From a virus (lineage: Duplodnaviria > Heunggongvirae > Uroviricota > Caudoviricetes): a stretch of DNA of 7,603 bases. Where the stretch lies: positions 1 to 7,603 of IMG/VR virus record IMGVR_UViG_2663763286_000014. One strand, given 5' to 3'. The position numbers and the translations under genes were made by a program. Each line of letters opens with the position of its first letter. Within the stretch, counting starts at the first letter, position 1. Below, one piece after another: positions 1-5,784 of this stretch. The notes beneath the pieces are model-generated. The model saw nothing but the letters and a program-made list of their open reading frames with translations. It did no database searches and was not told where the DNA came from.

Positions 1-327
1 TCATTTTTTCCAGAGGCGGTCGAACTCCGCCTTCGCAAAATAAGCGGAAGCCTGGCGAAGGATATCGTTACTGCGGCGCAGTTCACGATTTTCACGTTCC
101 AGCTCTTTCAGACGCTGACGTTCAGCGGTGGTGAGTCCACCATCACCACTCCCGGTATCCCGCTCATGCTGACGAACCCACACACGCAGAGTCTCTGGTG
201 TACAGCCAATCTTTGGGGCAATGGAACAAATTGCCGCCCATTGTGAGTCATATTCGCCCTGACTTTCCAGAACCATACGAACTGCCCGTTGACGGACCTC
301 GGGGGAAAAACGTGTATTTTTAGTCAT
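1..327 (-). CDS. IS3-family transposase OrfA (HTH DNA-binding subunit, 108 aa)
   Basis: Complete [25 protein letters not shown]...[36 protein letters not shown], with the N-terminal HTH and C-terminal leucine-zipper-like region typical of IS3-family OrfA (recognised as IS629/IS1203-type). SD AGAGG lies 8 nt upstream of the ATG at 327. The ORF ends WKK-stop over an A-rich run (GGAAAAAATGA) at the window edge. Confidence 0.9.
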
Positions 328-1572: not shown

Positions 1573-2099
1573 TTGCGTAACTCCGATAACTCGTTAAAAC
1601 GTTCCATAAACATCCCATAGGCATGGCCTGGCGACAGTGGAATAACTTTGAACATCTCTGTTGCCGGGATACCTTCCAGTACAGGCCAGAAAGAGCCATC
1701 ATCAAGCCCGAGATCGCGGCGTTCGGTTGCCAGCATAATGAGATCGGCATATTTCACTGGCGTGCTCATAACAGGAGGTAACCCGTATTTCTCACGGATT
1801 ACGGCGTCTATTTTTTCTTCCATCTGTTTATAGTCAGGAAGAAGGCGTTTCAGTGGCGCGGGGATGTCCTGACAATACGCTTCTGTTGCATCATGCATTA
1901 ACGCTTCAAAAGCAAACTCCTCCGGAACCAGTTTGCTGCAAAGCACCGCATGTTGGGCGACGCTGTAGAAGTGTGAAAGATGACCGGCAAAGCGACAGAT
2001 ATTTGAAAGGGAAACTGCGATATCGTTAATCACGATGTCGTCTTTATTTATCCTGTCATAATAAAAATGCTTCCCGGAAAAAGTTTTAATAAATGACAT
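1563..2099 (-). CDS. yfdR: HD-domain phosphohydrolase (YfdR-like 5'-deoxynucleotidase family, 178 aa)
   Basis: Contains H...H (HFYSVAQHAV) and HD (LMHDATEAY) metal-binding motifs characteristic of the HD superfamily. Start chosen at the internal ATG at 2099 (MSFIKTF...) because it has GGAG with a 6-nt spacer; the longer 199-aa extension to 2162 has no RBS. Length and neighbours (274-aa and 120-aa genes) match my memory of the CPS-53 yfdP-yfdQ-yfdR block; the symbol is from memory, not a search. Confidence 0.8.
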   Translation of the reverse strand: MSFIKTFSGKHFYYDRINKDDIVINDIAVSLSNICRFAGHLSHFYSVAQHAVLCSKLVPEEFAFEALMHDATEAYCQDIPAPLKRLLPDYKQMEEKIDAVIREKYGLPPVMSTPVKYADLIMLATERRDLGLDDGSFWPVLEGIPATEMFKVIPLSPGHAYGMFMERFNELSELRKCA

Positions 2100-2227
2100 T
2101 TTGTTCTCCACTTTATATGCGCTGCACCGCGCTGAATTTTGGTTAAAGAAAACCCTCGCCATCAGGCGATTATTGAGTTAATTACGTTTCCATAAATGCC
2201 CCCGCAGGGGCATTTGCAGTAATGAAA

Positions 2228-3052
2228 TCAGGCGGTGAAAGTACCAATAAAGGTTTCTACTTTGCTGTCTTTGAATTTCTCAACAAGCAGATCACGAAAT
2301 TCGTTAGCCATTTCTTCCTGCATCGCTTCCAGCTGAATAATGCGCAGAACCAGTACAGGACGATCGCCAGTGATAATGCTGAGGCGTAATTTAAACGGAC
2401 GTTCTTTCAGGCCTTCAAACGGAACGCATTTAAATTCAAATGCCACTGGCATAATGTCTTTGGTTTTCGCTTCGACAGACTCCATCAGAGAGCGTTTGCC
2501 GCTGAAGTCATTGTCTTCAAAATCAGCGGTCTGGTTTGCTTCAATTGTGATTTTACGGACTGCCGCAGCCGCTTTGGTTGCCTGAATGGTGTCACCATTA
2601 GCATCAAAGCCCACAAGGTAGTCGGCCCAGTCTTCAATCCATTCTGCCAGTGACTTCTGGGAGTTACGCTCGCCATTAACAGACAACAGAGCAGAAAACG
2701 GTGCTGTCTTTTTCAGTTTGAGGGTGGCGGTGTTATCTGCGTGACCTGGTTCATCAATAGTACCCAGGTTAAGCACACTGACGGCTCGCATATTATCGGC
2801 ATCGATAAAGCAGCGGGTGCCTTCATCTGCAAGATCTTTAGAATAACGGGTAAAGTCATCGATGCTGGCAGTGGAAAGCGCACCACGGAAACGGAAGCGA
2901 TTTAAATTAAATTTTTCCAGATCATGAATGCGGAAATTCTCAGGCAATGCCACAGCATCGGCACCAATCTTACTGATAATTTCATTAACACCCTGAGCAG
3001 AAATAAGGGCATGGATTTGATTAATTGCGGTTGCGTCTAAGTTCTGAGACAT
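2228..3052 (-). CDS. yfdQ: Hypothetical phage protein, YfdQ-like (DUF2303-type, 274 aa)
   Basis: Long uninterrupted ORF with protein-like composition. Strong SD (GTGAGGA, 6-nt spacer) before the ATG at 3052. Same length as K-12 YfdQ as I recall it, and sits next to the HD-domain gene; function unknown. Confidence 0.8.
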
Positions 3053-3117: not shown

Positions 3118-3480
3118 TTAATGACCTGCTGCGCGGAGTTTTCCGTCAGGTTCACCGGCAAGAGTCAGTAATTGTCCCTGGTCTTCCTGCAGAATAGTCA
3201 GGCGACCACCGCGATTGACATACATCGGTGTTTCGGTGGTGTCTTCTTCGGAAATTTTCCCGCGGTTAGTCGGGCGAACATATGAGAGTTTGTGTTTGAT
3301 TTTCACACGGTTCTCATCAAATGGTTCGATTTCCAGGTTGAGCGAGACCTTACCTTTGGTTTTCGTGTTCATCACACCGGAAGCGACTTCACTGAGAACA
3401 GCGCCGATTTTGGTTTCAAATACGCCGCCGTCCAGCTCCCCGATAAATGCCTGCACATCAGTACTGCGTTCGCTAGCCAT
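3118..3480 (-). CDS. Hypothetical phage protein, YfdP-like (120 aa)
   Basis: ORF MASERSTDVQAFIGELDGGVFETKIGAVLSEVASGVM... starts at the ATG at 3480 with strong SD GAGGAG (7-nt spacer). The ORF-track extension to 3798 (226 aa) upstream of this ATG looks like non-coding sequence (Arg/Cys/Leu-rich, GC-rich, no RBS). Confidence 0.8.
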   Translation of the reverse strand: MASERSTDVQAFIGELDGGVFETKIGAVLSEVASGVMNTKTKGKVSLNLEIEPFDENRVKIKHKLSYVRPTNRGKISEEDTTETPMYVNRGGRLTILQEDQGQLLTLAGEPDGKLRAAGH

Positions 3481-3917
3481 TTTGCTGCTCCTCATCATAT
3501 CGACCCTGCAAGGTCGGTTGGTTTCTCCACAAAACAGAGAAGAACACCTGCGGTGACAGCCGCCCGGATGGATTGGGTTATGAGCCCGTCGTCCGGTGAT
3601 GCTCTTCTCTGTTTTGTAAAAAGAGCGGTACCAGCCGGAAGCAAGGGTACAAACTGGTACCGCCAGGACTACACACAGCATAAAGTTGTGGTGCCGGGTG
3701 CCTCCCGGTGCCTGGCGAAGGTTGCACACCAGGCGGGTGGGTATCCACAGAAGGTCGACTGTCAGCCTCAACCTTAACCCGCGTGCGCTGAGCCGCATTC
3801 ACCACAACGCTAAGGATTCTCTCTGGTTGAAAATACTTAGCTGTTATGTGCCTGTCTTTTCACCACTTCAGGCTCGGTGGTATCCTTTTAAGCCCGTATA
3901 CATAAAAGGAAAATCAA
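3481..3917. other. GC-rich structured non-coding island (candidate regulatory RNA/processing region) between the yfdP-like gene and an 81-aa gene
   Basis: No protein-like ORF in any frame. Perfect 15-bp inverted repeat (3529-3543 ACAAAACAGAGAAGA / 3603-3617 TCTTCTCTGTTTTGT) enclosing ~59 nt. 10-bp GC-rich stem 3625-3634/3654-3663 built on three GGTAC(C) units. Tandem 10-mers CCGGGTGCCT/CCCGGTGCCT at 3694-3713. Confidence 0.35.
3611..3663 (-). terminator. Candidate intrinsic terminator for leftward transcription
   Basis: On the minus strand: stem GCGGUACCAG, 19-nt loop, CUGGUACCGC, followed immediately by UCUUUUUAC. The loop is long for a canonical terminator, and the palindromic GGTACC units allow alternative pairings. 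Confidence 0.3.
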
Positions 3918-4163
3918 ATGACTTTTGATGAAAAAGAACTTGATAATGCAATTAATAAAATCATCGTAACGTCGCTCTTTTCCTGTCTCAGCGACACTCA
4001 GCAGAAACAGTTCTACGAATCGGCTTTCAACATGATCGAGCGTTGTTGTTTCTGCGATGCCTACGAGTTACCTGAAAAAATCAGGAAACAGTTGGCTGAT
4101 GCTCTTCGAGTGCGACTTTCTGACCAATTTTCTGAAATGTGCTCTCCGAATTTGGACAAATAG
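3918..4163 (+). CDS. Small Cys-containing hypothetical protein (81 aa), rightward gene embedded in the leftward early region
   Basis: ATG at 3918 preceded by AAGGA (7-nt spacer). Protein-like helical composition with an ERCCFCDAYELPEK motif. More AT-rich than its surroundings. Overlaps the 3' end of the convergent minus-strand gene by 83 nt. Confidence 0.55.
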   Translation: MTFDEKELDNAINKIIVTSLFSCLSDTQQKQFYESAFNMIERCCFCDAYELPEKIRKQLADALRVRLSDQFSEMCSPNLDK

Positions 4164-4356
4164 AAAAAGGCCATTTCCATTCAGGGTCTGATGGAAATAC
4201 TTCAGCCTGTTCCAAAGCACGGCGTAAAGAGAACACAACTCCAGCCATAATCTGATGTTTCCCATTGGCCCAGCTATCGCCGCTCTGATCTACATGGGCG
4301 GCTATGTCGTATGACCAAACGACTTCACCACTATTGTTTAAAATCTGGACTTTCAT
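4081..4356 (-). CDS. Hypothetical protein, first gene downstream of the pL-like promoter (91 aa from ATG 4356; alternative ATG at 4377)
   Basis: ATG at 4356 has SD AGGTG with a 7-nt spacer; the upstream ATG at 4377 has no SD. Protein-like sequence MKVQILNNSGEVVWSYDIAAHVDQSGDSWANGKHQIMAG... Not Arg-rich, so not an obvious lambda-N-type antiterminator. Confidence 0.55.
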   Translation of the reverse strand: MKVQILNNSGEVVWSYDIAAHVDQSGDSWANGKHQIMAGVVFSLRRALEQAEVFPSDPEWKWPFSICPNSESTFQKIGQKVALEEHQPTVS

Positions 4357-4471
4357 TTCATACACCTGCTTTAACATGAGTGCCTAGTGGCACAACATGA
4401 CTCAACGAATCATCCTGGACTTCATATGCCCCAGGCGGCTACTTCGTGGGCGTCCTGCCTGTTCGTTACTG

Positions 4472-4523
4472 CAACATCTTTAAGTTGTAATCTAGTTGTT
4501 GTTTTGGTTGTTGTCAACAACTT
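4472..4523. promoter_or_regulatory. Left operator region (OL-like): two operator-like elements overlapping pL
   Basis: Element 1, CAACATCTTTAAGTTG (4472-4487), and element 2, TTGTCAACAACTT (4511-4523), each have a near-identical copy in the pR region (CAACATCTAAAAGTTG at 5450-5465; TTATCAACAACTT at 5498-5510). Both are built from inverted CAAC/GTTG half-sites. Confidence 0.5.
4489..4517 (-). promoter_or_regulatory. pL-like early leftward promoter (-35 TTGACA, 17-bp spacer, -10 TAGATT)
   Basis: On the minus strand, the perfect -35 hexamer TTGACA (4517..4512) and TAGATT (4494..4489) are separated by 17 bp. Overlaps the operator-like elements shared with the pR region. Confidence 0.6.
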
Positions 4524-4579
4524 TATGTGGTTTTGACGGATGTGAAATGAGGGCAAGGGTTATCAAAAAAGGAGGTTGT

Positions 4580-4684
4580 ATGGACGATGCGCTTTTAATT
4601 ACACAATGGACACTTTCCTTCCGTGATTGGAAACTCTCAAATCACGGGAGGAAGATTGAAAAGGCGGGTAATAATGGTAACTAA
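4580..4684 (+). CDS. Possible small ORF (34 aa) with strong SD, convergent with the repressor gene; uncertain
   Basis: AGGAGGT at 4570-4576 then ATG at 4580 (short 3-4 nt spacer). Peptide MDDALLITQWTLSFRDWKLSNHGRKIEKAGNNGN. The ORF encloses a 14-bp hairpin (4615-4628/4640-4653). Could instead be a non-coding structured element. Confidence 0.25.
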   Translation: MDDALLITQWTLSFRDWKLSNHGRKIEKAGNNGN

Positions 4685-4711: not shown

Positions 4712-5398
4712 TTACCAAGTGCGCGATGACCAGAATACTCTACCTATAACGTGAATTCTGGAACGCCTATCTTCGAAGGTGAGTATTTCATCTGGATACT
4801 CATCTTTATTGAAACTTCTTAGAATCAGACCACCGTCAGGTAAATTGATCAATATTTTAACTCTAAGTAATACGCCATCACGTATAGCATAAAGATCCCC
4901 ATCACGAATAGGAACTGTTTGGGAAACATCAACAGCAACAAAATCTCCATTGTTAAGTACAGGTAGTAAACTATTACCCCAAATTTTTACGATCTTTGCA
5001 TTGGAGACACATACACCAGCTTTTCTTAAATCAATCCTTCTTAGCGGGAACCAGTCTACAGTTGATTCAACTATTTCAGCCAAACATCCATTACCCGCTG
5101 ATAACTCGACATCTAGGACAGGAATGTTTGCAAAAATGTCAGGATCTAATGTTGTACTTTCAGCCTCCTTTACAACAAGGTCTGGGAAAGACGCGTTATC
5201 CTCAATGCCCAATTGCAACCACTTTTGAGAAACCCCTAACACTTTAGCAATCTCTTTAATTTTCCGAGGCTGTTGAGTTTCTCCATTCTCGATTTTTGCT
5301 ACGGATTGTTGTGAAAGCCCAATTTTTTCAGCTAGTTGCGCCTGACTCATTCCTGCTTTTTCTCTTTCGCTTTTTAGTCTTTCTGCCAATGTTTTCAC
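4712..5398 (-). CDS. CI-like prophage repressor: N-terminal HTH (XRE family) plus C-terminal S24 LexA-like autopeptidase (228 aa)
   Basis: HTH region MSQAQLAEKIGLSQQSVAKIENGE. Putative Ala-Gly cleavage site (LSAGNG). Ser nucleophile in GNSLLP and Lys in LLRVKIL, as in LexA/lambda CI. GTG start at 5398 with SD GAGGGGG (7-nt spacer). Divergent from the cro-like gene. Confidence 0.92.
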   Translation of the reverse strand: MKTLAERLKSEREKAGMSQAQLAEKIGLSQQSVAKIENGETQQPRKIKEIAKVLGVSQKWLQLGIEDNASFPDLVVKEAESTTLDPDIFANIPVLDVELSAGNGCLAEIVESTVDWFPLRRIDLRKAGVCVSNAKIVKIWGNSLLPVLNNGDFVAVDVSQTVPIRDGDLYAIRDGVLLRVKILINLPDGGLILRSFNKDEYPDEILTFEDRRSRIHVIGRVFWSSRTW

Positions 5399-5535: not shown

Positions 5536-5784
5536 ATGACACCTGAGCAATTAGCCTTATCAGAGGCAATCGCTCTGGCTGGTGGTCAATCAGAATTGGC
5601 TCGGAAGCTCACAGCCAGCAGTGGTCGTTTAGTAAAGCAACAACATGTCTGGAACTGGTTGAACAGAGAAAAGCGTCCCCCTGCAAAGCTCTCGATATTC
5701 ATTGAAATGACCACTGGCGTATCAAAAGAAAAATTACGTCCAGATATTTTTCAAAAGATTAAAGACTTATCAGATGGAAAGTAA
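5536..5784 (+). CDS. Cro-like/YdaS-family HTH regulator (82 aa)
   Basis: ATG at 5536 with AGGAG 7 nt upstream. Small HTH protein (GGQSELARKLTASSGRLVKQQHVWNW). First gene of the rightward operon, divergent from the CI-like repressor. Confidence 0.85.
   Translation: MTPEQLALSEAIALAGGQSELARKLTASSGRLVKQQHVWNWLNREKRPPAKLSIFIEMTTGVSKEKLRPDIFQKIKDLSDGK

What the first reader, a model, noticed from the sequence alone, without database searches (positions are those of the whole stretch)
3918..4356. Convergent overlapping small-gene pair directly downstream of pL; possible moron insertion
The + strand 81-aa gene (3918-4163: good RBS, Cys-containing ERCCFCDAYELPEK motif, AT-rich codon usage) is oriented against the leftward early operon and overlaps the 3' end of the minus-strand gene 4081-4356 by 83 nt. 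An AT-rich 8-bp hairpin (ATTTCCAT...ATGGAAAT, ~4173-4199) follows its stop. Antisense placement inside an early operon and atypical composition are hallmarks of independently acquired moron genes, which often encode superinfection-exclusion or host-modulating proteins. The two genes would also regulate each other by convergent transcription.
Basis: partly seen in the sequence, partly recalled or inferred. Interest (0 to 1): 0.45.

Follow-up and report, generated by a model that had tools for sequence, protein, structure and literature searches.

The report
Convergent two-gene prophage cargo cassette
Both small genes are real and travel together as one mobile, tail-to-tail cassette of unknown function, sitting in a highly variable cargo slot next to the repressor of an SfV/e14-type E. 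coli prophage.

Summary
The + ORF 3918-4163 (81 aa) and the - ORF 4081-4356 (91 aa, SfV orf33) converge and overlap by 83 nt.

Both ORFs are real genes. Against a copy about 60% identical, synonymous sites are saturated and replacement sites are not (pS 0.74 / pN 0.23 and 0.82 / 0.18).

The overlap itself is not selected. The conserved core of Orf33 ends at the + gene's stop codon, and its tail is a variable read-on (omega about 1).

The "moron" reading is half right.
- The + gene carries its own conserved promoter-like element (TTCACC-N16-TGgTATCCT, 3859-3886).
- It always lies antisense to the flanking phage operon.
- It also occurs in the Q-to-lysis region.

But it was not acquired separately from orf33. 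The pair recurs in seven lineages and two genomic positions and has diverged in step (Mantel r 0.89, P 0.0008).

The same element precedes at least 20 unrelated small genes, including e14 ymfI. Nearly every one has its own convergent partner.

The hairpin, the Cys motif and the "atypical" composition do not stand up.

The protein functions remain unknown. Mutually exclusive expression through convergent transcription is inferred, not shown.

The parts
3849..3888 (+). Conserved promoter-like element for the rightward gene. It has a -35-like TTCACC (3859-3864), a 16-nt spacer and an extended -10 TGgTATCCT (3878-3886). A dyad ACCAC (3862-3866) / GTGGT (3877-3881) lies within it. The predicted transcription start is near 3890-3893.
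   Evidence: The block is 100% identical to L004, although the flanking coding DNA is only about 70% identical. The TTxACC / TGgTAnnCT pattern recurs upstream of every family member examined, and also of e14 ymfI and SfII_36. The exact 33-mer precedes at least 20 unrelated genes. The consensus promoter scan did not list it, at 8 of 12 hexamer matches.
3906..3910 (+). Shine-Dalgarno sequence AAGGA, 7 nt upstream of the ATG
   Evidence: Read from the sequence. AAGGAAA is kept in all alleles.
3918..4163 (+). 81-aa gene (PHROG 3311). It encodes a small acidic protein (pI about 4.5), predicted to form three helices.
   Evidence: pS 0.74 / pN 0.23 against L004. The other five frames give omega 0.39-3.3. 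HMMER finds homologues down to 28% identity. The ORF is intact in 164 of 168 extracted copies. It matches phrog_3311 at E 1.8e-54.
4159..4356 (-). Conserved core (residues 1-66) of the Orf33-like gene (PHROG 3195), the first ORF downstream of the pL candidate
   Evidence: pS 0.82 / pN 0.18 against L004. Homologues at 47-71% identity occur in six other lineages. It matches phrog_3195 at E 2e-67. It is annotated as SfV orf33 and WP_021563905.1.
4081..4158 (-). Unselected C-terminal read-on tail of Orf33, encoded antisense to the 3' end of the 81-aa gene. With the stop-codon region it makes up the 83-nt overlap 4081-4163.
   Evidence: Tail omega is about 1 (pS 0.41 / pN 0.40). In L004 against L095 the overlap shows 2 synonymous and 6 non-synonymous changes in the orf33 frame, but 5 and 3 in the + frame. 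The overlap varies from 83 to 197 nt between alleles, and its length fits chance given the + protein (P 0.24-0.70).
4173..4199 (.). It lies inside the orf33 coding sequence (codons F-P / W-K) and is not a conserved terminator.
   Evidence: Folding gives z -1.3 on the + strand and -2.5 on the - strand. Other alleles have no equivalent structure, with z from -1.8 to +2.4.
4404..4468 (-). Conserved right-hand linker, the leader of the pL transcript upstream of orf33. It forms the right boundary of the swappable cassette.
   Evidence: SfII, Kati, mEp460 and ST64B match only this stretch and the left flank. A related sequence lies between the tandem cassettes of L178.
4489..4517 (-). pL candidate, TTGACA-17-TAGATT, flanked by an inverted repeat (4473-4488 / 4517-4532) that may be operators
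   Evidence: Promoter scan gives 10 of 12 matches. The inverted repeat is I5.
3616..3838 (-). STnc100-like sRNA gene with an intrinsic terminator. It is the left neighbour of the slot and not part of the cassette.
   Evidence: Rfam RF02076 scores 46.5 bits against a gathering score of 47, E 8.5e-8. It is present next to the slot in SfII, Kati and L004, but absent beside the module in L175, L178 and L182.

Best explanation
The two ORFs are both real genes and together form one mobile two-gene cassette. The cassette sits in a hypervariable cargo slot of an SfV/e14-type lambdoid prophage, between the early-left promoter pL and an STnc100-like sRNA gene.

The rightward 81-aa gene is its own transcription unit. 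An invariant extended -10 promoter-like element (3859-3886) faces pL and is followed by a good ribosome-binding site. The leftward gene (Orf33, with a functional core of about 66 aa) is the first ORF of the repressor-controlled pL transcript.

No conserved terminator lies between the two genes. Each transcript must therefore run antisense through the other gene.

Inferred: expression is mutually exclusive. In the repressed prophage the + gene is on and orf33 is off. After induction, pL transcription turns orf33 on and silences the + gene by promoter occlusion or collision and by antisense RNA.

The 83-nt overlap of the reading frames is a by-product. Orf33 simply reads on past its conserved core until a stop codon occurs by chance.

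The two proteins have diverged in step and move together between genomic positions, so they most likely act on each other or on one target. An effector and its antidote is one possibility. That step is inference and the biochemical function is unknown.
For: Shown:
- Purifying selection acts in both frames.
- Selection within the overlap acts on the + frame only, and the tail length fits chance.
- The pair is present, tail to tail in the same phase, in seven lineages: window, L004, L095, L178, L182, L175 and L190/191. These lie next to cI-like repressors and, in L182, next to the holin genes.
- The identity matrices of the two proteins correlate (Mantel r 0.89, exact P 0.0008).
- The promoter-like element is conserved across alleles and is shared with unrelated cargo genes.
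- Almost every cargo gene has a convergent, 3'-overlapping partner.
- No conserved hairpin lies between the genes.
- The cassette is present in 541 of 5426 complete E. coli genomes.

By analogy, from the non-homologous e14 pair behind the same element:
- ymfI-ymfJ is listed as a convergent excludon from RNA-seq (PMC12288877).
- ymfJ is induced late in the SOS response (log2 4.8) and YmfJ protein is detected, while ymfI rises only 2.0 (PMC11002266).
- ymfJ, but not ymfI, is in the gene list given for the YmfT iModulon in PMC12132413.
- In ST64B an ncRNA and two genes downstream of CI are induced together with the lytic genes (PMC7067206).
Against: - There are no expression data for this cassette.
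- The promoter is only a reading of conserved sequence. Its hexamers match 8 of 12 positions and the consensus scan did not list it. The element could instead be conserved as a recombination linker.
- Co-divergence could simply reflect physical linkage.
- Some family members lack a detectable Orf33: L174 and L186/187 have none, and L185 has only a remnant. An O157-type lineage keeps the 81-aa gene with orf33 frameshifted. So the + gene can persist alone.
- Both AlphaFold models are poor (pLDDT 55 and 53.5).
- No homology to any characterised family was found.
Confidence: 0.6

Rival explanations
1. The 81-aa gene alone is a moron that was inserted independently, antisense, behind a pre-existing pL gene. 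It serves the lysogen, for example in superinfection exclusion, and has no functional tie to orf33.
For: - The gene has its own promoter-like element and lies antisense.
- Family members without Orf33 occur in the Q-holin region (L174) and in L186/187.
- The 81-aa gene is intact where orf33 is frameshifted.
Against: - Orf33 homologues accompany the gene in seven lineages, in identical phase, and also after relocation to the lysis region.
- The two proteins co-diverge.
- Related phages swap the pair as a whole, not the + gene alone.
- There is no terminator, and composition is not atypical.
Confidence: 0.15
2. The pair is a defence or toxin module with built-in self-immunity. One product is harmful to the cell or to infecting phages. 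The other, expressed in the opposite phase of the prophage life cycle, neutralises it. Convergent transcription enforces the switch.
For: - The pair co-diverges and is mobile.
- It sits in a hypervariable slot next to the repressor.
- Both proteins are small and acidic.
- orf33 is disrupted while the partner is kept in one widespread lineage.
- There is a precedent for prophage defence with cognate self-immunity: BstA/aba (PMC8585504).
Against: - No hit in PADLOC, Pfam or NCBIfam.
- There are no toxicity or defence data.
- Known protein toxin-antitoxin pairs are co-transcribed, not convergent.
- The e14 genes ymfI and ymfJ have no reported phenotype of this kind in the papers found.
Confidence: 0.22
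3. The two genes are functionally unrelated neighbours. They are inherited together only because their ends overlap and because conserved linkers on either side make the whole interval the unit of recombination.
For: - Homology breaks fall at the two linkers, after GGTGGTAT on the left and within the first 15 codons of orf33 or at about 4404 on the right.
- The overlap itself is unselected.
Against: - The pair stays together in a quite different context (L182, lysis region) that lacks the STnc100 flank.
- The same tail-to-tail pattern recurs in about 20 unrelated cassettes. That is hard to explain without a functional reason for the architecture.
Confidence: 0.2
4. The + ORF is not a gene. It would be an open frame antisense to a real gene or to non-coding leader sequence.
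For: - PGAP does not annotate it in RefSeq genomes.
- No family name exists.
Against: - Omega is about 0.08-0.15 in this frame only.
- Homologues exist down to 28% identity with conservative changes.
- The RBS and promoter element are conserved.
- Most of the ORF (3918-4080) is not overlapped by any conserved - strand frame.
Confidence: 0.02

Closest known systems
ymfI-ymfJ of cryptic prophage e14 (E. coli K-12)
   Same: - It occupies the same slot, between the STnc100-like region ('ymfH') and the cI-like repressor ymfK.
- The identical promoter element lies upstream of the + gene.
- The pair is convergent with a 63-nt 3' overlap.
- It is listed as a convergent excludon (PMC12288877).
- The - gene is induced with the prophage's early genes (PMC11002266).
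   Different: The proteins are not homologous to those here (BLASTP E > 0.1). Neither e14 protein has a known function either.
Morons of lambdoid phages (independent transcription units such as bor and lom; reviewed in PMC3594210)
   Same: - The + gene has its own promoter-like element.
- It lies antisense to the surrounding operon.
- Its presence varies between otherwise syntenic phages.
- Homologues occur in the Q-to-lysis moron region.
   Different: The mobile unit is two convergent genes. There is no terminator of its own. The partner gene is co-oriented with, and probably driven by, the phage operon.
Excludons and antisense control in phages (lambda OOP/cII, coliphage 186 face-to-face pR/pL)
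   Same: Transcription units converge and their transcripts must overlap. Transcriptional interference and antisense RNA are the expected outcome.
   Different: Both partners here encode conserved proteins, and the pair is not the immunity switch itself. Interference has not been measured.
Prophage defence with cognate self-immunity (BstA/aba, PMC8585504; P22 sieB/esc, from my own knowledge)
   Same: It is an accessory locus beside the prophage repressor. It follows the idea of a lysogen-phase function that the phage must neutralise during its own lytic growth.
   Different: There is no sequence or domain similarity. aba is a DNA element and esc an in-frame product, not a convergent gene. No defence phenotype is known for this cassette.
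STnc100 / PasD prophage sRNA family (RF02076; bioRxiv 10.64898/2026.05.13.724894)
   Same: The left neighbour (3616-3838, - strand) matches the family over its full length and ends in a terminator.
   Different: It scores just below the gathering threshold (46.5 against 47 bits). It is not linked to the cassette in other contexts.

Membership tests
Moron (independent prophage transcription unit) | Own promoter upstream of the gene | tested here: inconclusive
   A conserved TTxACC-N15/16-TGgTAnnCT element lies upstream of all family members. It matches only 8 of 12 hexamer positions and was not listed by the consensus scan. There is no transcription start-site data.
Moron (independent prophage transcription unit) | Own terminator downstream | tested here: not met
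   The hairpin at 4173-4199 has no U-tract, gives z -1.3, and is not conserved in other alleles.
Moron (independent prophage transcription unit) | Present or absent as a unit between otherwise syntenic phage genomes | tested here: not met
   This feature is not met for the + gene alone. SfII, Kati, e14 and ST64B replace or lack the whole pair between two conserved linkers. It is met only if the unit is the two-gene cassette.
Moron (independent prophage transcription unit) | Expressed from the repressed prophage | not testable with these tools
   No transcriptome of a lysogen carrying this cassette was available.
Excludon (overlapping convergent transcription units with mutually exclusive expression) | Convergent genes whose transcripts overlap | tested here: met
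   The coding regions themselves overlap by 83 nt and no conserved terminator lies between them.
Excludon (overlapping convergent transcription units with mutually exclusive expression) | Reciprocal expression of the two partners | not testable with these tools
   The only evidence is the analogous e14 pair: it is listed as an excludon, and ymfJ but not ymfI behaves like the prophage early genes (PMC12288877, PMC11002266, PMC12132413).
Type II toxin-antitoxin system | Two co-transcribed genes with recognisable toxin and antitoxin domains | tested here: not met
   The genes are convergent, not an operon. No Pfam, NCBIfam, PADLOC or PDB sequence match was found.
Type I toxin-antitoxin system | Small hydrophobic toxin peptide repressed by an antisense RNA | tested here: not met
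   Both products are acidic, with pI 4.4-6.7 across lineages. The models predict a helical protein and a beta-hairpin plus helices, and neither sequence has a long hydrophobic stretch. The antisense partner encodes a conserved protein.
STnc100 sRNA (RF02076), for the neighbouring element only | Score at or above the Rfam gathering threshold | tested here: not met
   46.5 bits against 47 bits, a narrow miss. E is 8.5e-8 and model positions 1-206 are all matched.
PHROG 3311 / PHROG 3195 (phage protein families of unknown function) | Full-length profile match | tested here: met
   E 1.8e-54 over positions 1-81 of 81, and E 2e-67 over positions 1-98 of 98.

The most novel reading that the evidence does not exclude
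The interval between pL and the STnc100-like gene of SfV/e14-type prophages may be a dedicated hypervariable locus. It holds at least 20 unrelated cassettes, each a rightward small gene behind one invariant promoter paired with a convergent, 3'-overlapping leftward gene fed by pL. These pairs would form an undescribed class of modules coupled to the lysogeny/lysis switch. One partner (a defence or host-modulating effector) would work in the prophage state. The other would be its phage-specific antidote or counterpart, switched on at induction. Convergent transcription would enforce the hand-over.
Probability: 0.2. Interest if true: 0.75.

Novelty: new variant of a known kind. Interest (0 to 1): 0.5.

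Why it matters
The cassette is present in about 10% of complete E. coli genomes, including O157:H7 strains, yet RefSeq annotation omits the 81-aa gene.

If the architecture works as inferred, it offers three things:
- a compact natural example of two protein genes kept mutually exclusive by convergent transcription and tied to the prophage switch;
- a portable promoter at a swap site holding at least 20 unrelated cargo genes, which would make this a place to look for new prophage accessory, defence or counter-defence functions;
- a testable role for the long-unexplained K-12 genes ymfI and ymfJ, which occupy the same slot.

Tried and rejected
- **Family and structure searches.** Pfam, NCBIfam, PADLOC and PDB sequence or profile searches gave nothing for either protein or their relatives.
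- **Structure prediction.** AlphaFold2 of the 81-aa protein (single sequence) and of Orf33 (7-row alignment) gave pLDDT 55 and 53.5. I did not run fold searches because such models give meaningless matches.
- **Species-representative genomes.** Two scans of this collection found no relative.
- **SOS control.** No LexA box beyond chance.
- **Terminator between the genes.** No conserved hairpin in either strand across six alleles. The SfV record's 'terminator' at about 3898-3930 folds at only -2.3 kcal/mol.
- **Selection for a dual-coding overlap.** Rejected by omega of about 1 in the tail and by a synonymous-codon simulation.
- **The Cys motif as a metal site.** Not conserved.
- **STnc100 as part of the module.** Rejected, because it is absent beside the pair in L175, L178 and L182.
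- **A second convergent pair in L182.** It is not homologous to the Kati pair.
- **Cargo proteins of the slot.** Pfam gave only two sub-threshold hits, a Zn ribbon and Lar.
- **Literature and expression data.** The SfV genome paper was not held. My attempt to place the cassette in EDL933 by coordinates hit another prophage region, so published EHEC RNA-seq and Ribo-seq data could not be tied to it.

Full report
**Context.** The window is the immunity and early-left region of an SfV / CPS-53 / e14-type lambdoid prophage of E. coli.
- It is 99% identical to chromosomal prophages, and 98.6% identical to phage SfV over 3700-4467.
- cI-like repressor: 4712-5398 (-).
- cro-like gene: 5536-5784 (+).
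- yfdP, yfdQ and yfdR lie to the left.
- An IS3 orfA with its ALIL frameshift pseudoknot lies at 1-327.
- The best pL candidate is TTGACA-17-TAGATT at 4517-4489 on the - strand, flanked by an inverted repeat.

**Observation.** The coordinates, the RBS, the 83-nt overlap and the inverted repeat are all as described.
- The - ORF is SfV orf33, annotated WP_021563905.1 in RefSeq.
- Its conserved start is MKVQ at 4356.
- The + ORF is annotated in some phage records but not by PGAP.
- Both ORFs are PHROG families of unknown function and have no Pfam domain.

**Are they genes?** A Rac-like prophage contig (L004) carries diverged copies of both ORFs, at about 60% amino-acid identity. I compared window and L004 by the Nei-Gojobori method.

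| Region | pS | pN | Note |
|---|---|---|---|
| + ORF | 0.74 | 0.23 | omega about 0.08; the other five frames give 0.39-3.3 |
| Orf33 residues 1-65 | 0.82 | 0.18 | |

A full HMMER scan found homologues of the 81-aa protein down to 28% identity, all 72-85 aa. Among 168 extracted copies (69 distinct sequences, not independent), the + ORF is intact in 164 and orf33 in 163. Both ORFs are therefore real protein-coding genes.

**The overlap.** The conserved core of Orf33 ends (WPFSI) exactly at the + gene's stop codon, in the same phase in every allele. Beyond that point:
- The tail runs at omega of about 1.
- Between the close alleles L004 and L095, the overlap shows 2 synonymous and 6 non-synonymous changes in the orf33 frame, against 5 and 3 in the + frame.
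- The overlap varies from 83 to 197 nt. A simulation that resamples synonymous codons of the + gene reproduces these lengths (P 0.24-0.70).

The reading-frame overlap is a by-product. What is conserved is the tail-to-tail abutment.

**The pair is the unit.** Orf33 homologues (47-71% identity) lie convergent to the + gene in several settings:
- L178-181 and L175-177, beside cI-like repressors;
- L190/191, a Salmonella Rac-like prophage;
- L182-184, next to the holin genes in the late region.

Across seven lineages the two identity matrices correlate (Mantel r 0.89, exact P 0.0008).

There are exceptions. L174 and L186/187 have the + gene without Orf33, and L185 has only a remnant. A widespread O157-type lineage has orf33 frameshifted but the 81-aa gene intact.

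**Promoter element and slot.** Window 3849-3888 is 100% identical to L004, although the neighbouring coding DNA is about 70% identical. I read it as TTCACC-N16-TGgTATCCT, with a dyad ACCAC...GTGGT.
- The hexamer and TG pattern recurs upstream of every family member.
- The dyad is kept with different loops and stem extensions: ACCACGC/GCGTGGT in L178 and ACCACA/TGTGGT in L182.
- The same element precedes e14 ymfI, SfII_36 and a Kati gene.

Nearly all of these have a convergent - ORF that overlaps their 3' end. Tandem cassettes exist in L043 and L178. The SfII-type cassette keeps the first 15 codons of orf33 as a scar. Homology therefore breaks at two linkers, one just after GGTGGTAT and one at about 4404-4468.

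Caveat: the consensus promoter scan did not list the element. It could be conserved as a recombination linker rather than as a promoter.

**Hairpin, motif, composition.**
- The hairpin at 4173-4199 is weak on the + strand, lacks a U-tract, lies inside the orf33 coding sequence and is not conserved.
- The CCxC motif is lost in distant homologues, and Y49 is private to this window.
- The + gene's GC content (40.7%) is like that of cI (39.4%).

**Expression, by analogy only.**
- e14 ymfI-ymfJ is listed as a convergent excludon (PMC12288877).
- ymfJ is strongly induced late in the SOS response and YmfJ protein is detected, while ymfI responds weakly (PMC11002266).
- ymfJ, but not ymfI, is in the YmfT iModulon list of PMC12132413.
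- In ST64B an ncRNA and two genes downstream of CI are induced with the lytic genes (PMC7067206).

**Function.** No homology to a characterised family was found. Structure models are poor.
- The 81-aa protein is predicted to form three helices.
- Orf33 is predicted as a beta-hairpin plus helices.
- Both proteins are acidic.

**Mechanism.** I propose an excludon-like cassette.
- The + gene is driven by its own promoter in the repressed prophage.
- orf33 is driven by pL after induction.
- Each transcript is antisense to the other gene.
- The two products probably act as a functional pair.

The architecture is shown. The regulation and the protein interplay are inferred.

**Comparison and novelty.** The closest known case is e14 ymfI-ymfJ, with the same slot, the same element and the same architecture but unrelated proteins. 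The cassette fits the moron concept only partly: it has its own promoter and variable presence, but it is a pair and has no terminator. It is neither a type I nor a type II toxin-antitoxin system. The genes were already catalogued as hypothetical proteins. The recurrent convergent-pair architecture behind one invariant element appears not to be described in the literature I could search.

Noticed in passing
window 3616-3838 (-): There is a full-length STnc100-like sRNA (RF02076) at 46.5 bits, just under the gathering score, ending in an intrinsic terminator. The ORFs called on it are probably not protein genes. These are window 3578-3805 and 3495-3644, PGAP's 'frameshifted hypothetical protein', and K-12 ymfH. 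The 226-aa ORF 3118-3798 is yfdP plus a spurious extension across this RNA.
   Followed up: partly
window 3851-3883 and loci L192-L310: The exact 33-nt element precedes at least 20 unrelated small genes in viral contigs. Nearly every one has a convergent, 3'-overlapping partner ORF. None has a Pfam family above threshold.
   Followed up: partly
L043 3441-4305; also L054, L056 and L178 2034-3439: Two cassettes lie in tandem, each with its own copy of the promoter element. The SfII-type cassette retains the first 15 codons of orf33 as a mini-ORF that ends 3 nt before its own - gene start.
   Followed up: partly
window 4404-4468: The leader of the pL transcript is conserved (82-89%) in SfII, Kati, mEp460, ST64B and others with different cargo. 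A related sequence lies between the tandem cassettes of L178. Its role is unknown.
   Followed up: no
window 1-327 (-): An IS3-family orfA is cut by the window edge, with the ALIL frameshift pseudoknot (RF01497, 49.2 bits) at 1-46. An insertion sequence has therefore interrupted the prophage's left arm.
   Followed up: no
window 2056-2236 (-): A second, weak STnc100-like match (23 bits, E 0.08) with a terminator-like 3' end lies between yfdQ and yfdR.
   Followed up: no
window 4615-4653: A 17-nt-arm inverted repeat (88% complementary, 5-nt loop) lies just downstream of the cI stop codon. It is probably the cI terminator.
   Followed up: no
L311-L315 (protein P0047): A widespread lineage, including 5.5-Mb genomes, has orf33 split by a frameshift into 54 and 55 aa while the 81-aa gene is intact.
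   Followed up: partly
L185 2773-2925 and 3533-3738; L182 5862-6045: Other regulatory RNAs lie close to family members in the Q-to-lysis region: a Sib antitoxin RNA (107 bits), STnc100 (71 bits), C4 antisense RNA and IsrK. HicAB and Fic/Phd modules are also nearby. This is a dense accessory-gene neighbourhood.
   Followed up: no
L186 781-1236 (protein P0055): The 151-aa gene call is an over-extension. The family's promoter-like element (TTAACC-N16-TGgTACTCT) lies inside it, and the true start is the MTFEQN methionine at codon 77.
   Followed up: yes
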